DNA of 64,000 nt from Eledone cirrhosa. Its lineage: Eukaryota. Below are positions 33,001 through 63,767 of the stretch, piece by piece; within the stretch, counting starts at the first letter, position 1; every line of letters begins with the position of its first letter. The notes below the pieces were generated by a model. It made no database searches. It saw only the letters and a list, made by a program, of their open reading frames with translations, and had not been told where the DNA came from. A program made the position numbers and the translations under genes. The DNA lies in contig CAXHJY010001693.1 of NCBI GenBank assembly GCA_964016885.1, positions 1 to 64,000 of the forward strand, read 5' to 3'.

Positions 33001-35782
33001 ATGTCTAAATCGGTGTATAAATGACTAAAATGAATCTAAAATGGCTAAAACAGCCTCATAAATGACTGAAATGACTCTAAAATGGCTAAAACGGCATCAT
33101 GAATGACTAAAATGGCTCAAACGGCATCATAACTGAATGAAATGACTCTAAAATGGCTAAAACGCCCCATAAAGGACTAAAATGACTCTAAAATGGCTAA
33201 AATGGCATCATAAATGACTAAAATGAACGTAAAAATGGCTAAAACAGCATTGTAAATGACTAAAATGACCCTAAAATGTCTAAAACGGTGTATAAATGAC
33301 GAAAATTACTCTAAAATAGCTAAAACAGCATCGTAAATGACCAAAATGACCCTAAATTGCCTAAACCGGTGTATAAATGACGAAAATGACTATAGAATGG
33401 TTAAATGCGCCTCATAAAGGACTAAAATGACTCTAAAACTGCTAAAACCGCATCATAAATGACTAAAATGGCTAAAACAGCATCATAATTGACTAAAATG
33501 GCTAAAATCGCCTCGTAAATGACTAAAACAACTCTAAAAGGGCTAACACTGCCTCATAAAGGACTAAAATGCCTCTAAAAGGGCTAAAACGGCATCATGA
33601 ATGAGTAAAATGGCTCAAACTGCATCATAAATGAATAAAATGACTCTAAAATTGCTAAAACCCCCTCATAAAGGACTAAAATGACACTAAAATGGCTTAA
33701 ACAGTGTATAAATGACTAAAATGACTTTAAAATTTCTAAAAAAGCATCATAAATGACTAAAGTGACCCTCAAAATGGCTAAAACGATATATAAATGATGA
33801 AAATTACACTAAAATGGATAAAACGGCATCAGAAATGACTAAAATGACTCTTAGATGGCTGAAACAACATCGTAAATGACTAAAATAACCTTAAAATGTC
33901 TAAATTGGTGTATAAATTACTAAAATGAATCTAAAATAGCTAAAACCGCCTCATAAAGGACTAAAATGACTCTAAAATGGCTAAAGCGGCTTCATAAATG
34001 ACTAAAATGACTCTAAAATGGCTAAAACCGACTCATAAAGGACTAAAATGACTCTAAAATGGCTAAAGCGGCATCATGAATGACTAAAATGACTCCAAAA
34101 TGGCTAAAACCGCCTCATGAAGGACTAAAATGAATCTAAAATGGCTAAAACCGCATCATGAATGACTAAAACGGCAAAATAAATGAATATATGCCTCTAA
34201 AATGCCTAAAACGACATCACAAATGACGAAAATGACTCTAAAATGGCTAAAGCGGCTTCATAAATGACTAAAATGACTCTAAAATGGCTAAAACCGACTC
34301 ATAAAGGACTAAAATGACTCTAAAATGGCTAAAGCGGCATCATAAATGACTAAAATGACTCCAAAATGGCTAAAACGGCCTCATGAAGGACTAAAATGAA
34401 TCTAAAATGGCTAAAACCGCATCATGAATGACTAAAACGGCAAAATAAATGAATATATGCCTCTAAAATGCCTAAAACGACATCACAAATGACGAAAATG
34501 ACTCTAAAATGGCTAAAACCGCCACATAAAGGACTAAAATGTCTCTAAAATGGCTAAAACGGCATCATGAATGACTAAAATGGCTCAAACGGCATCATAA
34601 CTGAATAAAATGACTCTAAAATGGCTAGAACCACCCCATAAAGGACGAAAATCACTCTAAAATGGCTAAAATGGCATCATAAATGACTAAAATAACCGTA
34701 AAAATAGCTAAAACGGTATATAAATGATGAAAATTACTTTAAAATGGATAAAACGGCATCAGAAATGACTAAAATGACTCTTAGATGGCTAAAACAGCAT
34801 TGTAAATGACCAAAATGACCCTTAAATGTCTAAAACGCTGTATAAATGACGAAAATTACTCTAAAATGGCTAAAACAGCATTGTAAATGACCAAAATGAC
34901 CATAAGATGTCTAAACCGGTGTATAAATGACGAAAACGACTCTAAAATGGTTAAAAGCGCCTCATAAAGGACTAAAATGACTCTAAATTGTCTAAAACGG
35001 CATCATAAAGAACTAAAAGGACTCTAAAATGGCTAAAACAGCATCATAAATGACTAAAATGACCCTAAAAATGGCTAGAATGGTATATAAATGATGAAAA
35101 TTACTCATAAATTGATAAAACAGCATCATAAATGACTAACATGACTCCAAAATGGCTAAAGCAGCATCATAAATGACTAAAATGACTCTAAAATGGCTAA
35201 AACCGCCTCATAAAGGACTAAAATGACTGTAAAATGGTTAAAACGGCATCAAAAATAACTAAAATGACTCTAAATTGACTAAAACCGCATCATGAATGAC
35301 TCAAACGGCGAAATAAATGAATATATGCCTCTAAAATGCCTAAAACAACATCATCAATGACGAAAATGATTCTAAAATGGCTAAAATCGCGACATAAATG
35401 ACTAAAATGACTCGAAAATGGCTAAAACAGCCTTATAAAGGACTAAAATGACTCTAAAATGGCTAAAACGGCACCATAAATGACTAAAATGACACAAAAA
35501 GGGTTAAAACCGTCCCATAAAGGACTAAAATAGTTAAAACCGCATCATAAATGATTAAAATGGCTAAAAAGGCATCATGAATGACTCAAATGACACTAAA
35601 AGGGCTAAAACCGCATCATCAATGACTAAAACGGCAAGATAAATGAATAAATGCCTCTAAAATGCCTAAAACGACATCATCAATGACCAAAATGACTCTA
35701 CAATGGCTAAAACGGCATAAAAAATAACTAAAATGACTCTAAAAGGGCTAAAATCACATCATAAATGACTAAAATGGTTAAA
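1..35782 (+). repeat. Major satellite array, 41-bp monomer (AAAATGACTCT-AAAATGGCT-AAAACGGCATC-ATAAATGACT) with 30-bp variants and higher-order repeats
   Basis: CTCATAAAGG recurs at 1 and 42 (41 bp). The opening block recurs at 2632 and 5262. Same orientation throughout; runs off the left edge of the window. Confidence 0.98.
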
Positions 35783-36800
35783 ATAGTGGTGTATATGTAA
35801 TATTTAATACAGAAAAGGCTTCTACAGGACTAAAACTCATTAATATGAGGTGTATTAGTACATTATATGCCATATTTAGTACAGAAATGGCCTCTAAATG
35901 CAGTAAAGTCTTTAATTCGAATCAAATAGTAGTATATATGCAATATTTAATACAGAAATGGCTCCTACAAGACTAAAACTCATTAATATAACGGGTATTC
36001 GTAGTATATATGCCATATTTAATAAAGAAATGGCTTCTAAATTCAGCAAACTCTTTAATTCGAAGCAAATAGTAGCGTATATGCAATATTTAATACAGAA
36101 ATGGCTTCTACAGGACTAAAACTCATTAATATGAGGCGTATTAGTACATTATATGCCATATCTAGTACAGAAATGGCTTCTAAATGCAGTAAAGTCTTTA
36201 ATTCGAATCAAATAGTAGTATATATGCAATATTTAATATAGAAATGGCTTCTACAAGACTAAAACTCATTAATATAAGGGGTATTCGTGGTATATATGCC
36301 ATATTTAATACAGAAATGGCTTCTAAATGCAGTAACCCTTTAATTTGAATCAAATAGTAGCGTATATGCCATATATAATACAGAAATGGCTTCTAAATGC
36401 AGTAAACTCTTTAATTCGAATCAAATAGTTACATATATGCCATATTTAATACAGATATGGCTTCTACAGGTCTAAAACTCATTAATATGAGGAGTATTAG
36501 TACATTATATGCCATATTTAGTACAGAAATGGTTTCTAAATGAAGAGAACTCTTTCATTCGATGGAAATAGTGGTGTATATGCAATATTTAATACAGAAA
36601 TGGCTTCTACAACACTAAAACTCATTAATATGAGGGGTATTCATAGTATATATGCCAAATTTAATACAGAAATGGCTTCTAAATGCAGTAAACTCTTTAA
36701 TTTGAATCAAATAGTTGCATATATGCAATATTTAATACAGAAATGGCTTCTACGGGATTAAATTCATGAATATAAGGCGTATTAGTAGATTATATGCCAT
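35783..36800 (+). repeat. Second satellite: ~14 units of 71/72 bp forming A/B dimers of 143 bp
   Basis: Constant block TATATGCMATATTTAATACAGAAATGGCTTCTA; its ACAGAAA falls at about 35809, 35881, 35952, 36024, 36095, 36167 ... 36737, followed alternately by two types of ~40-bp segment. Confidence 0.95.
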
Positions 36801-50127: not shown

Positions 50128-50130
50128 CTG

Positions 50131-50430
50131 GGGAGGATAGGAAACAGATGTGGAGTGGTGTAGTGTGGTGGTGGTGTAATAGGGGAGGATAGGAAACAGA
50201 TGAGGAGTGGTGTAGTGTGGTGGTGGTGTAGTAGGGGAGGATAGGAAACAGATGTGGAGTGGTGTAGTGTGGTGGTGGTGTAATAGGGGAGGATAGGAAA
50301 CAGATGAGGAGTGGTGTAGTGTGGTGGTGGTGTAGTAGGGGAGGATAGGAAACAGATGTGGAGTGGTGTAGTGTGGTGGTGGTGTAATAGGGGGGAGGTC
50401 ATAGGAAACAGATGTGGAGTGGTGTGGTGG
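50131..50430. repeat. 52-bp intronic minisatellite, ~5.5 copies, followed by a GTG/GTA-rich tract
   Basis: GGGAGGATAGGAAACAGATG at 50131, 50183, 50235, 50287, 50339. Confidence 0.92.
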
Positions 50431-50576
50431 TAGTGGTGGCTTAGTGTGATGTAGTGTAGAGTTGAGTATAGGGGTGGTTGTGGTTCTGTAGTGGAGGTGT
50501 AATGTAATAGTGGTTGTGTAGTGTGGTGGTGATGTAGTGTAGTAGTAGTGTAGTGGTGATGTAGTGGTCTACTCAC

Positions 50577-51148: not shown

Positions 51149-51379
51149 GAGTTTTTCGAATATTAATAATAACATTCGATTCGTTTGCAATTATGCAAAT
51201 AAGCCTCAATTTTATAGCCATGTCAGTAGAATGAACCCTTCATTCTTGCTCTTGTGTTGGCATGTCAACAGAACAAGAGCAAGAATGAAGGGTTCATTAT
51301 ACTGCCATGGCTATAAAATTGAGGCTTATTTGCATAATTGCAAACGAATCGAATGTTATTATTAATATTCGAAAAACTC
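51149..51379. repeat. Near-perfect palindrome in CHORDC1 coding intron 4 (107-bp arms, 2 mismatches)
   Basis: 51149-51255 pairs with 51273-51379; the centre TGTTGGCA/TGTCAACA also pairs. Confidence 0.93.
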
Positions 51380-53131: not shown

Positions 53132-53285
53132 GTATATATACAGGGTCATCCCCAAAAAGTATACACACTTCAACAGCATTCTAATAAATATGGCCTGTAC
53201 AGGTAATCAAAGTGTGTATATATATATTTGGGGGGGGGGGGGGCATATATGTAATGTATGTACGATTAGAAAAGTGTAGATTTAC

Positions 53286-53346
53286 CTTCAGTATTGGAAT
53301 CTGGATCGAAATCCTGTCCACAAGTTTTGTTATAACATTTAGGCAT
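53286..53346 (-). CDS. CHORDC1: CHORDC1 coding exon 1 (cysteine and histidine-rich domain protein 1 / morgana, HSP90 co-chaperone)
   Basis: ctttacag|TGGACA ATG; MPKCYNKTCGQDFDPDSNTE|gtaaat. The nine exons sum to 933 nt = 310 aa + stop, with two complete C-x4-C-x13-C-x2-H-x14-CC-x15-C-x4-H CHORD domains and a CS domain. No melusin-type acidic tail. Confidence 0.93.
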
Positions 53347-53395
53347 TGTCCACTGTAAAGAAATAGAGATAGATATACAGTATATATACTGTGTA

Positions 53396-53431
<36 letters not shown>

Positions 53432-54246
53432 CCTACACATACCGTATATATACAGTATATATACTGTATATATATATATTTAAAGGTTAAACAAGGTTTA
53501 TACCTACACATACCGTATTATATATATACACAGTTCAAGAGTAACCAATCTTAAAGAGAGAGATGGAGATAGTAGAGGAGATATGAGAGGAGAGATTGGT
53601 GAGTTAGTTAGAAGCCAAAGCGTAAAGGCATGTGCTCAATGTGCAATATGCAGTAGAAAGCAGCTAGGTGACTGGGTTCATGCAGATCTCACACAATGCA
53701 GCCTCGACAGATGAATACTGCTTGATTATGGCTGACAACTGATGCAACCAAGACACCATAGTAAAAACCAATGTATGGAACATTATATTATGGAACATTA
53801 TATTATGTAACATTATCCCATTATTTTAATTTATATTCCTTTGAAGTTCCGATGAGCCACTCTGTTTTTTAAATATGTTAATTATTTTCAACTGAACCAG
53901 ATCAATTATGATATATAGTCATCTGATCCAGAAATATTATATGGAGTAGCAAAACAATTGTAAACGGACATTATTATTATTAATATTATTATTATTATTC
54001 TCTACATTCCTTACATCAAACTAAAATATGTTGACAATCTTTTAATAATGTCTTCCTTGTGAAATTTGTGGTCTTGTTTTGCTTAACTAATGAATAAGTA
54101 TATATATATATATATATTTAAAGGTTAAACAAGGTTCAATGAATAAAGTTTTACACTAGATTAGAAGCACTCCACAGTTAGGCTTTCCGGAGTTATTAAT
54201 ATTAATTCAAAATATTAACAAATATAGACATTCGTGTGATCAAGTA

Positions 54247-54313
54247 TATTTTATTATACATATTTCAGAGGTACTGAGCTATCTTCAACAGTACGTCCTC
54301 ATCAGATAAAATA
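54247..54313 (-). ncRNA. Minimal type I hammerhead ribozyme motif (mirror copy)
   Basis: Exact reverse complement of 54378-54444. Confidence 0.75.
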
Positions 54314-54377
54314 AGATGATGACTGCCATGACTGAATTATAACCATCTACTTAGTCAAGGTATGTCATGCATCATCT

Positions 54378-54444
54378 TATTTTATCTGATGAGGACGTAC
54401 TGTTGAAGATAGCTCAGTACCTCTGAAATATGTATAATAAAATA
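54378..54444 (+). ncRNA. Minimal type I hammerhead ribozyme motif
   Basis: Stem I TATTTTAT/ATAAAATA; core CTGATGA (54386-92); stem II GGACGTACTG/CAGTACCTCT; GAAA (54425-28); short self-complementary stem III ATATGTAT; cleavage triplet AUA (54434-36). Confidence 0.75.
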
Positions 54445-54927
54445 TACTTGATCACACGAATGTCTATATTTGTTAATATTTTCATATATATATATACCTA
54501 CACATACCGTATATATATAGTATCAACACATATATTTTTATTGTTTGACCCGAATTACTTGGTCGTTTTGATTTTGGCTGTGCGGATGATATGTTTAACC
54601 ATCATCTCAGTGTGTTTGGCCCTTAACGTATGTTGTAGCTCTGATTCATATGATTCATCGAGCGCTTGCCACACACATCGGACGTTGATTTTCGTTAATT
54701 CCTGAGCTGAAAACGATTCTCGCTAATTTATATTTATATATATATATATATATATATATAAACACATATATACATACAAACACATATATACATACACATA
54801 TATATATACGTATACATATACTGTATGTATATATATATATATATAGTTAAAAGAATAGAGGTGTAACACACAAGTTATTATATATATATATACTGTTGTC
54901 CACTGTGGTCCCCCCATACGAAACAAA

Positions 54928-55286
54928 GTATCATGGAAGTTGAAGCACCCCAAAGATCGATGGCATGACAGACCTTGACTGTTGGAGTCGATTAGAAAAG
55001 CTCAACCTTAATTCTCCCGTGAGAGCTACATTATCTGCATGATGTGGAAAATATTCCATCAGCTTAGCCCAAATGATGTTGGCATCACCTTTAGTGTACA
55101 CCCAAGGCTTGGGCCCCGTGCTATCCGCCCACGACAAAAATCTCACTCGCATCTCATAACAATAATACGTCACAATTATTTCACCACAATTGGCCCTGCT
55201 CTCTTTAACATTACACCAAAACACATCAAAGCAGAGACAGACCCCATCAAGTTAAAGAAGTCTTTGGAGAAATTCCTTCAAGAAAT
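54928..55286 (+). mobile_element. CR1-group LINE 3' fragment (second subfamily)
   Basis: RLEKLNL / ERYIICMMWKIF...HPRLG...FTTIGPALFNITPKHIK...LKKSLEKFLQEI, parallel to the 42-kb LINE tail. Confidence 0.75.
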
Positions 55287-55637
55287 ATATATATACAATG
55301 TTAGAACACTGGGAGGTTATATCACAGCCAGTAGAGCACCCAGTCCACAGGACGAGTCCTGTATAAAGTTAGTTTCACAACAAATTAGCAAAACAAAATC
55401 CGTGAAAACGTATCCTCGAAGATGGTTTGATAATACATTGTGGAACTTTATATATATATATACACATATATATACACACACATATATATATAAACACACA
55501 CACATATAAACACACACATATATATATATATAAACACACATGAATGTATGTACATTATATTTGACAATATAATGTATGTTTAAATAAAAACATTTAGAAA
55601 TACTATACATACATTCATATATATATATATATATATA

Positions 55638-57833: not shown

Positions 57834-57901
57834 TATTTTATTATATATATATTTCAAGGGCAACCAGGGCAAATTATGGTGCACTTTCATCAGATAAAAT
57901 A
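57834..57901 (-). ncRNA. Minimal type I hammerhead ribozyme motif
   Basis: Minus strand: TATTTTAT-CTGATGA-AAGTGCACCA-loop-TGGTTGCCCTT-GAAA-TATATAT-ATA-ATAAAATA. Confidence 0.68.
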
Positions 57902-59669: not shown

Positions 59670-60088
59670 ATCATCATCATTTTACTTCCGCTTTTCCCTA
59701 CTTGCAAGGGTGGGACGGGAACAGAGTCTGACTTGATTTCTACAGCTGGATACCCTTCCTAACACCAACCTCATTTACAGTGAGTGCTGGGTGCTTTTTT
59801 GCCGTGGCACCTCCACGACCACTACAGCTGGATGCCCTTCCTAACACCAACCTCATTTACAGTGAGTGCTGGGTGCTTTTTTGCCGTGGCACCTCCACGA
59901 CCACTTTGCAGTGGAATGATAGGGACCCCAGTCCCTATCATCTAATTCCTACAGCTGAATAAACTGGAGCAATGTGAAATAAAGTGTCTTGCTCAAGGAA
60001 ACAACACATCACCCGGTCTGAGAATTGAACTCACAACCTTTCGACGATTGCAAGGCCAATGCTCTAACCACTAAGCCATGTGCCTCCA
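59670..60088 (-). mobile_element. tRNA-derived SINE, family A, with an internal 82-bp tandem duplication
   Basis: CTACAGCTGGAT...CCACGACCA at 59740 and again at 59822. Confidence 0.92.
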
Positions 60089-61128: not shown

Positions 61129-61556
61129 GGTCTGGAGGCCAACATTTTACATCTGGCCTAGGCCTATTACAAGGTCTGGAGGCCAACATTTTACAACTGG
61201 CCTGGGCCTATTACAAGGTCTGGAGGCCAACATTTTACAACTGGCCTGGGCCTATTACAGGGTCTGGAGGCCAACATATTACATCTGGCCTGGGCCTATT
61301 ACAGAGTCTGGAGGCCAACATATTACATCTGGCCTGGGCTTATTACAGAGTCTGGAGGCCAACATATTACATCTGGCCTGGGCCTATTACAGGGTCTGGA
61401 GGCCAACATATTACATCTGGACTGGGCCTATTACAGGGTCTGGAGGCCAACATATTACATCTGGCCTGGGCCTATTACAGGGTCTGGAGGAACATATTAC
61501 ATCTGGCCTGGGCCTATTACAGGGTCTGGAGGCCAACATTTTACATCTGGCCTGGG
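61129..61556. repeat. 44-bp minisatellite, ~9.7 copies
   Basis: GGTCTGGAGGCCAACATATTACATCTGGCCTGGGCCTATTACAG at 61129, 61173, 61217, 61261 ... Confidence 0.95.
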
Positions 61557-62968: not shown

Positions 62969-63767
62969 CAGTGATTCTCAACCAGTGTGCCGCGACATCT
63001 TCCTAAGTGTGCAAAGAAATTTTGACTAAGAAATGCGAATAGTTTGAATCATTCTATGTGTCTATGACTGGTCTATGTCTACAGTTGTATACCGTCTATG
63101 ACTGGTCTATGTCTACAGTTGTATACCGTCTATGACTGGTCTCTGTCTACAGTTGTATACCGTCTATGACTGGTCTATGTCTACAGTTGTATACCGTCTA
63201 TGACTGGTCTATGTCTACAGTTGTATACCGTCTATGACTGGTCTATGTCTACAGTTGTATACCGTCTATGACTGGTCTATGTCTACAGTTGTATACCGTC
63301 TATGACTGGTCTATGTCTACAGTTGTATACCGTCTATGACTGGTCTATGTCTACAGTTGTATACCGTCTATGACTGGTCTATGTCTACAGTTGTATACCG
63401 TCTATGACTGGTCTATGTCTACAGTTGTATACCGTCTATGACTGGTCTATGTCTACAGTTGTATACCGTCTATGACTGGTCTATGTCTACAGTTGTATAC
63501 CGTCTATGACTGGTCTATGTCTACAGTTGTATACCGTCTATGACTTGTCTGTGTCGACGGTTGTATACCGTCTATGACTTGTCTGTGTCGACGGTTGTAT
63601 ACCGTCTATGACTTGTCTGTGTCGACGGTTGTATACCGTCTATGACTTGCCATGTTTTTATTTTGTAAAATTCAAATATTTTTCATATATATATTTGGCC
63701 AGGTGTGCCGCTATTTTTTTATGCGTTCCAAGGTGTGCCGTTGGCAAAAAAAGGTTGAGAACCACTG
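62969..63767. mobile_element. Non-autonomous hAT (Charlie-like) DNA transposon
   Basis: TIRs CAGTGATTCTCAACC / GGTTGAGAACCACTG; 8-bp target duplication GTCTATGT (62961-68) / GTCTATAT (63768-75). Confidence 0.85.
63060..63649. repeat. 34-bp minisatellite (~17 copies) inside the hAT element
   Basis: GTCTATGACTGGTCTATGTCTACAGTTGTATACC; the last three copies are a variant (GACTTGTCTGTGTCGACGG). Confidence 0.96.

What the first reader, a model, noticed from the sequence alone, without database searches (positions are those of the whole stretch)
54209..54482. Hammerhead ribozyme duplicated as a perfect inverted repeat just 5' of the CHORDC1 start codon
Seen: each 113-bp arm holds a full type I hammerhead (8-bp stem I, CUGAUGA, 10-position stem II with one mismatch, GAAA, minimal self-complementary stem III, AUA triplet). 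Known: minimal hammerheads with reduced, palindromic stem III occur in Penelope-like retroelement termini and cleave as dimers, and these elements often leave inverted ends. Inference: from either strand the antisense arm is transcribed first, so the ribozyme would be trapped in long dsRNA, a self-silenced state that could let it persist in the probable 5'-UTR intron. Both arms share the stem II mismatch, implying recent inversion or arm-to-arm conversion.
Basis: partly seen in the sequence, partly recalled or inferred. Interest (0 to 1): 0.75.

Follow-up and report, generated by a model that had tools for sequence, protein, structure and literature searches.

The report
Penelope retroelement stub with mirrored hammerheads
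This mirror-image repeat is two short end-pieces of a very common Penelope-type jumping gene joined head to head in a TA run near the CHORDC1 start codon, each carrying a predicted self-cutting RNA fold, and it is most likely an ordinary insertion footprint rather than a device that regulates the gene.

Summary
In detail: two 113-nt arms are identical, and each holds a type I hammerhead fold. The feature is larger than reported (54117-54482). It is a head-to-head pair of 5'-truncated terminal repeats (pLTRs) of a Hydra-type Penelope-like retroelement, inserted in (TA)n; only one arm has the 3' tail. The same pLTR flanks RT/GIY-YIG ORFs elsewhere in the genome. The exact 67-nt ribozyme has 448 copies, and a looser pattern has 36,102 matches (control 0). 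Helices covary across families.

The stem II mismatch is conserved across families (67 of 72 variants), so it does not show arm conversion. The orientation belongs to the insertion mechanism (13 of 14 close pairs), not to selection at CHORDC1. The long hairpin would indeed trap the ribozyme, but lone copies are common and lone minimal hammerheads barely cleave. Copies end at two fixed 3' sites, often begin at a fixed 5' site, and almost never begin at the cleavage site, so the template was likely uncleaved RNA. Opposite-strand hammerhead pairs are in print, and the scan found this architecture before on other DNA of this genome. No Rfam hammerhead hit; the 5'-UTR intron is unproven.

The parts
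54322..54482 (+). Right copy: pLTR from the family's fixed 5' start to 10 nt short of the first fixed 3' end; no tail
   Evidence: 88-97% identical to pLTRs beside RT ORFs in most of L051-L070 (74-81% in three more distant loci); 5' extension 64 nt from the core, the commonest value
54117..54321 (-). Left (main) copy: pLTR truncated 16 nt before the core, running through the 3' tail to the second fixed end; same strand as CHORDC1
54378..54444 (+). Type I hammerhead fold, predicted cleavage after 54436
   Evidence: covariation; 448 exact genomic copies
54247..54313 (-). Mirror-image hammerhead fold, predicted cleavage after 54255
54322..54369 (+). Apparent spacer: 5' end of the pLTR with a predicted hairpin; candidate transcription start at 54322 (inferred)
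54117..54198 (-). One-sided tail between the two fixed 3' ends; in full-length elements it is followed by the start of the ORF; holds a predicted hairpin whose stem resembles one in another family
54099..54116 (.). (TA)n target, left side
54485..54496 (.). (TA)n target, right side
53283..53352 (-). CHORDC1 exon with the ATG (53346), preceded by an acceptor-like site; host context, not part of the element
   Evidence: single match in the genome

Best explanation
This is a young insertion of a Hydra-type Penelope-like retroelement in a (TA)n run, made of two 5'-truncated terminal-repeat copies joined head to head, and it was likely produced in one event in which both strands of the cut DNA primed reverse transcription of uncleaved element RNA. 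Shown: family identity, target, asymmetry (one arm with the tail, one without), fixed ends, conserved fold. Inferred: the element's RT starts at two internal sites just downstream of the hammerhead, one per DNA strand, runs to or near the RNA's 5' end (54322-equivalent), and the two cDNAs are joined at their ends. The hammerhead is a passenger here: it would need a second tandem copy to build stem III, and in any transcript through both arms it would be locked in a 113-bp duplex. No host role is needed to explain it.
For: pLTR, tail, ORF, about 1.9 kb, pLTR order in L051, L052, L058 and others; ORF of 750 aa with SDKT, YRDD and a C-terminal YIG motif. 3' ends are bimodal: 71 of 116 distinct copies at the first end, 41 at the second. 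In 18 of 20 other head-to-head pairs one arm has each end, against about 46% expected (p 5e-5). 5' ends pile up 60-69 nt before the core in 42 of 116 copies; 219 genomic copies of a sister subfamily start exactly there. Of 1,255 copies of the 23-mer just 3' of the cleavage site, 1,193 have the element's G 12 nt upstream, and about 10 of the other 62 could begin near the cut (by eye). PMC11167929 showed both-strand cleavage and extension, two internal RT starts bounding the tail, and no need for hammerhead cleavage in vitro.
Against: The right arm stops 10 nt short of the usual first end. The tail (82 nt) is longer than the 30-40 nt in print. Loci were chosen partly for being near-identical or paired, so fractions are not genome-wide estimates; three pairs (L134, L135, L137) were dropped because only one arm matched the motif. 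Two convergent neighbour pairs occurred (L010, L156). The window's tail is only about 75-83% identical to tails beside the ORFs fetched, so the exact source element was not found. No empty allele was seen. Nothing was tested at the bench.
Confidence: 0.85

Rival explanations
1. One reading: the inverted partner silences an otherwise harmful ribozyme, and this is why the insertion is tolerated in a CHORDC1 5'-UTR intron.
For: The full hairpin abolishes the ribozyme fold in calculation. The main copy is sense to CHORDC1. An acceptor-like site precedes the ATG exon.
Against: The orientation is general (13 of 14 close pairs). The arm sequence has 20 exact copies among the other fetched loci, so the insertion is young and shows no long persistence. 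A lone arm also favours other folds (stem I probability 0.005-0.06), and a monomeric minimal hammerhead did not cleave in PMC4209133. No intron was demonstrated.
Confidence: 0.07
2. The palindrome arose after insertion, by fold-back repair or arm-to-arm gene conversion of a single copy.
For: The arms are identical; arms of other pairs share subfamily variants (11 shared differences from the reference in L110).
Against: A local fold-back would not give one arm at each of two fixed 3' ends in 18 of 20 pairs. Shared variants follow equally from one RNA source. Arms differ at 1-9 of 109 positions in 13 of 20 other pairs, so homogenisation is not strong.
Confidence: 0.05
3. It is a non-autonomous circular-RNA retrozyme, or a MITE-like DNA element.
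For: Short, non-coding, hammerhead-bearing, with terminal inverted repeats in a TA target.
Against: No tandem unit; the same sequence is the pLTR of ORF-bearing elements; spacers vary (core-to-core 26-276 nt) and the ends are asymmetric. A fixed 5' end is not expected of a circle.
Confidence: 0.03

Closest known systems
Hydra clade of Penelope-like elements (Craig et al. 2021, PMC8557442; passages, section 11 and part 2 of the supplement read), e.g. Penelope-13_HM and Hydra-1_Obim
   Same: C-terminal GIY-YIG-type domain, DKT, CxCX5C linker, RW[R/K] motif, (TA)n target, hammerhead in the pLTR. Penelope-13_HM is listed with a 5'-truncated inverted copy and its hammerhead on both strands.
   Different: Unit about 4.5-4.7 kb with a 1.9-kb 3' region (published: generally under 3 kb). 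Hammerhead with a long stem II, a conserved C.Y mismatch at its fourth position, mostly an R-U first pair and a shorter stem III; its sequence differs from the Hydra-1_oBim ribozyme in the supplement (compared by eye).
Minimal pLTR hammerheads of metazoan PLEs (Cervera and De la Pena 2014, PMC4209133; parts 1-2 of 4 read)
   Same: Type I fold, palindromic minimal stem III, long helix II, mostly dispersed single copies; dual motifs 100-700 bp apart on opposite strands are stated there.
   Different: G10.1-C11.1, described there as highly conserved, is A-U or G.U in 61 of 72 variants here (G-C in 9); stem I is 8 bp against 4-5 in Schistosoma. The 36,102 matches exceed the 9,000 reported for Xenopus tropicalis, but are below the 120,000 of axolotl retrozymes (PMC7229834, passages).
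PAc (Poseidon, Anolis) internal RT initiation (Frangieh et al. 2024, PMC11167929; parts 1-2 of 4 read)
   Same: Two RT start sites at the pLTR-ORF junction bounding the tail; AT-rich target; unprocessed RNA as template.
   Different: Other clade; tail 30-40 nt and inside the ORF there, about 82-95 nt and upstream of the ORF here; shown in vitro there, inferred from copy ends here.

Membership tests
Type I hammerhead ribozyme | Core CUGANGA, GAAA and NUH | tested here: met
   core invariant apart from N7 in 24 representatives, but these were selected by a core descriptor
Type I hammerhead ribozyme | Helices I-III with compensatory changes | tested here: met
   93.7% of cells paired against 81.8% shuffled and 34-57% slid; 13 of 20 pairs change on both sides, 8 of 9 in stem II. 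Sequences were picked by a pairing descriptor and are related, which inflates this; stem I covariation rests on 2 sequences.
Type I hammerhead ribozyme | G10.1-C11.1 first pair of stem II | tested here: not met
   G.U in the window; AU 31, GU 30, GC 9 of 72. A one-base shift gives G-C with an extra base on each side.
Type I hammerhead ribozyme | Match to an Rfam hammerhead model | tested here: not met
   the 32-nt stem II region may be the reason (inference)
Type I hammerhead ribozyme | Self-cleavage | not testable with these tools
   needs in vitro transcription
Minimal (dimer-type) PLE hammerhead | Palindromic stem III | tested here: met
   fully self-complementary (G.U allowed) in 72 of 79 distinct motifs, with AU/GC swaps
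Penelope-like element (EN+) | pLTRs flanking one RT plus GIY-YIG ORF | tested here: met
   RT and endonuclease are called from motifs and from homologues (one carries PF00078); Pfam gave no significant hit on the ORF itself.
Penelope-like element (EN+) | Inverted 5'-truncated copy and one-sided tail | tested here: met
   window and 18 of 20 other pairs
Hydra clade | DKT instead of DKG; CxCX5C linker; RWK motif | tested here: met
   SDKT in 10, C.CRN...C in 12, RVRW[RKG] in 4 of 20 loci; DK[TS] in 106 and DKG in 0 of 120 homologues. The motif reads RWR/RWG rather than RWK; the L051 copy has lost the last Cys.
Hydra clade | Insertion into (TA)n | tested here: met
Hydra clade | CCHH motif absent from the endonuclease | not tested
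   no alignment against CCHH-bearing clades was made
Hydra clade | Phylogenetic placement with named Hydra elements | not tested
   no named reference proteins were held as tool data
Non-LTR retrozyme | Tandem 170-400 nt hammerhead units without an ORF | tested here: not met
   no tandem array at the site; the sequence is the pLTR of an ORF-bearing element

The most novel reading that the evidence does not exclude
The short copies record the whole 5' end of the element's RNA: two reverse transcriptases start at two fixed internal sites, one on each strand of the cut DNA, and copy uncleaved RNA back to a capped start 64 nt before the hammerhead core, sometimes copying the cap as an extra G; and these genomes keep a hammerhead variant with an R-U base pair and an obligatory C.Y mismatch in stem II that Rfam misses in tens of thousands of copies.
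Probability: 0.45. Interest if true: 0.5.

Novelty: new member of a known kind. Interest (0 to 1): 0.2.

Why it matters
The locus itself is ordinary: one of many such stubs. The family offers statistics on an open question, how Penelope-like elements form inverted ends and a one-sided tail, and whether their hammerheads take part in insertion. The copy ends say the ribozyme is bypassed for these insertions. The conserved stem II mismatch gives a simple mutational test of a hammerhead variant. A 113-bp perfect duplex in a pre-mRNA would be a likely ADAR or Dicer substrate (general knowledge, not tested).

Tried and rejected
Rfam scans gave only hairpin-driven miRNA and snoRNA matches below gathering scores; rejected as artefacts of the palindrome.

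Expression: no RNA holder was listed. Contigs of three guessed RNA runs from other organisms and one unlabelled run laid on 53560-54715 gave only short pieces and no usable joint; no evidence either way on transcription, the intron, or RNA ends at 54436. No laying spanned the ATG exon and the element together, so the intron remains open.

A candidate upstream exon at about 54560-54700 was dropped: it is deeply covered in the unlabelled run, like a repeat. No second CHORDC1 copy with an empty site was found.

Cap-derived G: G precedes the fixed start in 21 of about 51 non-source-context copies of the window's subfamily (by eye), but in the sister subfamily T leads (T 57, G 33, A 10 of 100 listed non-C copies, by eye), and an internal CATG-ACT repeat could give the same letter by slippage; kept as a lead only.

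Literature searches: octopus + hammerhead ribozyme (4 listed, only the Craig paper relevant); Penelope + untemplated G + cap (0 papers); extra G + cap; Penelope promoter + pLTR. Subscription papers and bioRxiv supplements are not covered. A sequence look-up in earlier findings returned two unrelated phage notes.

Full report
Observation. The arms 54209-54321 and 54370-54482 match at 113 of 113 positions. CHORDC1 lies on the minus strand with its ATG at 53346; two downstream exons hit Pfam CHORD above cutoff and the ATG exon weakly. The palindrome is 863 nt upstream. An acceptor-like site sits 6 nt before the ATG, but no upstream exon was located. Rfam has no hammerhead match here. The host is a 3.0-Gb animal genome; a cephalopod is my guess from its make-up and was not tested.

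It is a repeat family. One arm gave 399 candidates, 40 of them scored, with matches mostly 98-100% identical. The exact 67-nt ribozyme occurs 448 times. A pattern that fixes only the core and five pairs of stem I occurs 36,102 times against 0 for the reversed control.

The parent element. Locus L013 had an inverted RT fragment next to the repeat. Searching with it gave 150 scored matches out of 26,756 candidates. In 20 ten-kb stretches chosen from these, the order pLTR, tail, ORF, about 1.9 kb, pLTR appears in L051, L052 and L058, and partial forms in the others; 18 of 20 hold a match to the window's right copy, mostly 88-97% identical. The longest open frame is 750 aa. Motifs named for the Hydra clade in PMC8557442 (section 11 read) are present: SDKT in 10, the CxCX5C linker in 12 and RVRW[RKG] in 4 of the 20 loci; among 120 homologues DK[TS] occurs in 106 and DKG in none. 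Pfam did not recognise the ORF, and no tree was built.

True anatomy. Compared with other copies, the right copy starts at 54322, so the spacer is element sequence. The left copy starts 16 nt before the core and runs through an 82-nt tail to 54117. TA runs flank both sides. Among 116 distinct copies, 71 end at a first fixed site about 107 nt after the core start and 41 at a second about 95 nt further on. Of 20 other head-to-head pairs, 18 have one arm of each kind (expected about 46%, p 5e-5); 11 of these regions were picked because both arms held the exact ribozyme, and three pairs were dropped because one arm missed the motif. Among the first 100 pattern hits, neighbours within 300 nt are minus-then-plus in 13 of 14 cases. 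The layout is thus the family's insertion footprint. It is in print: an inverted 5'-truncated copy and a one-sided tail (PMC8557442, passages), Penelope-13_HM with its hammerhead on both strands (same paper, supplement part 2), and dual minimal hammerheads on opposite strands 100-700 bp apart (PMC4209133).

The ribozyme fold is conserved. Across 24 hand-picked representatives, 93.7% of cells pair, against 81.8% in shuffles and 34-57% in slid controls; 8 of 9 stem II pairs change on both sides (anchored test 140 of 144 against 116). These sequences were found with a pairing descriptor and are related, so the figures overstate the case. Position 4 of stem II, which the descriptor did not force, is C.C or C.T in 67 of 72 distinct stems while its neighbours covary. 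The mismatch is therefore a feature of the motif and says nothing about conversion. Stem III is self-complementary in 72 of 79 distinct motifs, as the dimer model of PMC4209133 expects. The first pair of stem II is mostly A-U or G.U instead of G-C.

Is the ribozyme used in insertion? Of 1,255 exact copies of the 23 nt just 3' of the cleavage site, 1,193 have G at the element's upstream position (99 of the 100 listed show element context) and about 10 of the other 62 could start near the cut (by eye). Instead, 5' ends cluster 60-69 nt upstream of the core (42 of 116). About 51 of 65 listed copies of the window's subfamily lose the source context within a few bases of that point (by eye); in a sister subfamily 219 start exactly there while 938 run on (both patterns restrict the first letter). 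This fits uncleaved linear RNA with a start inside the pLTR, as for the internal promoter of Drosophila Penelope (PMC2377424, passages) and the unprocessed template of PAc (PMC11167929). An extra G from the cap is known for L1 and SVA (PMC3287187, passages); here the evidence is mixed (see Tried and rejected).

The trapping idea. In the full element the hairpin folds at about -203 to -209 kcal/mol and ribozyme helices have probability 0.0; forcing them costs about 103 kcal/mol. The physics is right, but it follows from the geometry of every such pair. A single arm is also poorly folded in calculation (stem I probability 0.005-0.06), and a monomeric minimal hammerhead did not cleave in PMC4209133. 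Nothing points to selection at CHORDC1; the enrichment test needs an annotation that was not available.

Verdict. A real hammerhead fold in an ordinary, young, head-to-head pLTR insertion of a Hydra-type Penelope-like family. The scan has noted the same architecture many times on other DNA of this genome; those notes are unchecked and served only as leads. What I tested here agrees with them. The bioRxiv paper on retrozymes (10.64898/2026.07.22.740005) was read in part 1 of 5 only, and PMC13282606 in passages (no mention of ribozymes or Hydra in its main text).

Noticed in passing
window 57836-57901 (-): A third hammerhead of a sister family (same stem I, different stem II, stem III lengthened by one TA) in a solo pLTR stub ending in a TA run; related copies at 82-96% in many loci.
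   Followed up: partly
window 53479-53498: A 20-nt piece identical to the end of the element's tail, next to a TA run, between two copies of a short motif that also follows the right arm at 54497; possibly a second, extremely truncated insertion.
   Followed up: partly
window 51149-51379: A second inverted repeat (107-nt arms, 98%, 17-nt spacer) inside a CHORDC1 intron, with no hammerhead core; copies in several fetched loci, MITE-like.
   Followed up: partly
window 1-35776: A 41-nt satellite (about 874 copies, 123-nt higher-order unit) with strong AT skew fills more than half of the contig; a 143-nt repeat follows at 35781-36752.
   Followed up: no
window 54520-54712 and 53560-53990: Both flanks are deeply covered in the unlabelled run and seem to be other repeats.
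   Followed up: no
window 55012-55300 (+): A 165-codon open stretch that resembles the C-terminal end of a LINE ORF2 (resemblance recalled, not tested).
   Followed up: no
L052, L058 (G000 C3, C4): Full-length units are about 4.5-4.7 kb with a 1.9-kb non-coding 3' region, longer than the under-3-kb Hydra elements in print.
   Followed up: partly
L118 (G000:C1:13822093-13822358): Two hammerheads of this family in direct tandem 206 nt apart, a layout that could form the dimer.
   Followed up: no
L066:7406-7466 and L080:2269-2329: A more distant hammerhead family with a GC-rich stem I and a G-C first pair that still keeps the C.C mismatch at stem II position 4.
   Followed up: partly
window 50130-50439, 59740-59905, 61129-61556, 63060-63647: Minisatellites of 52, 82, 44 and 34 nt.
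   Followed up: no
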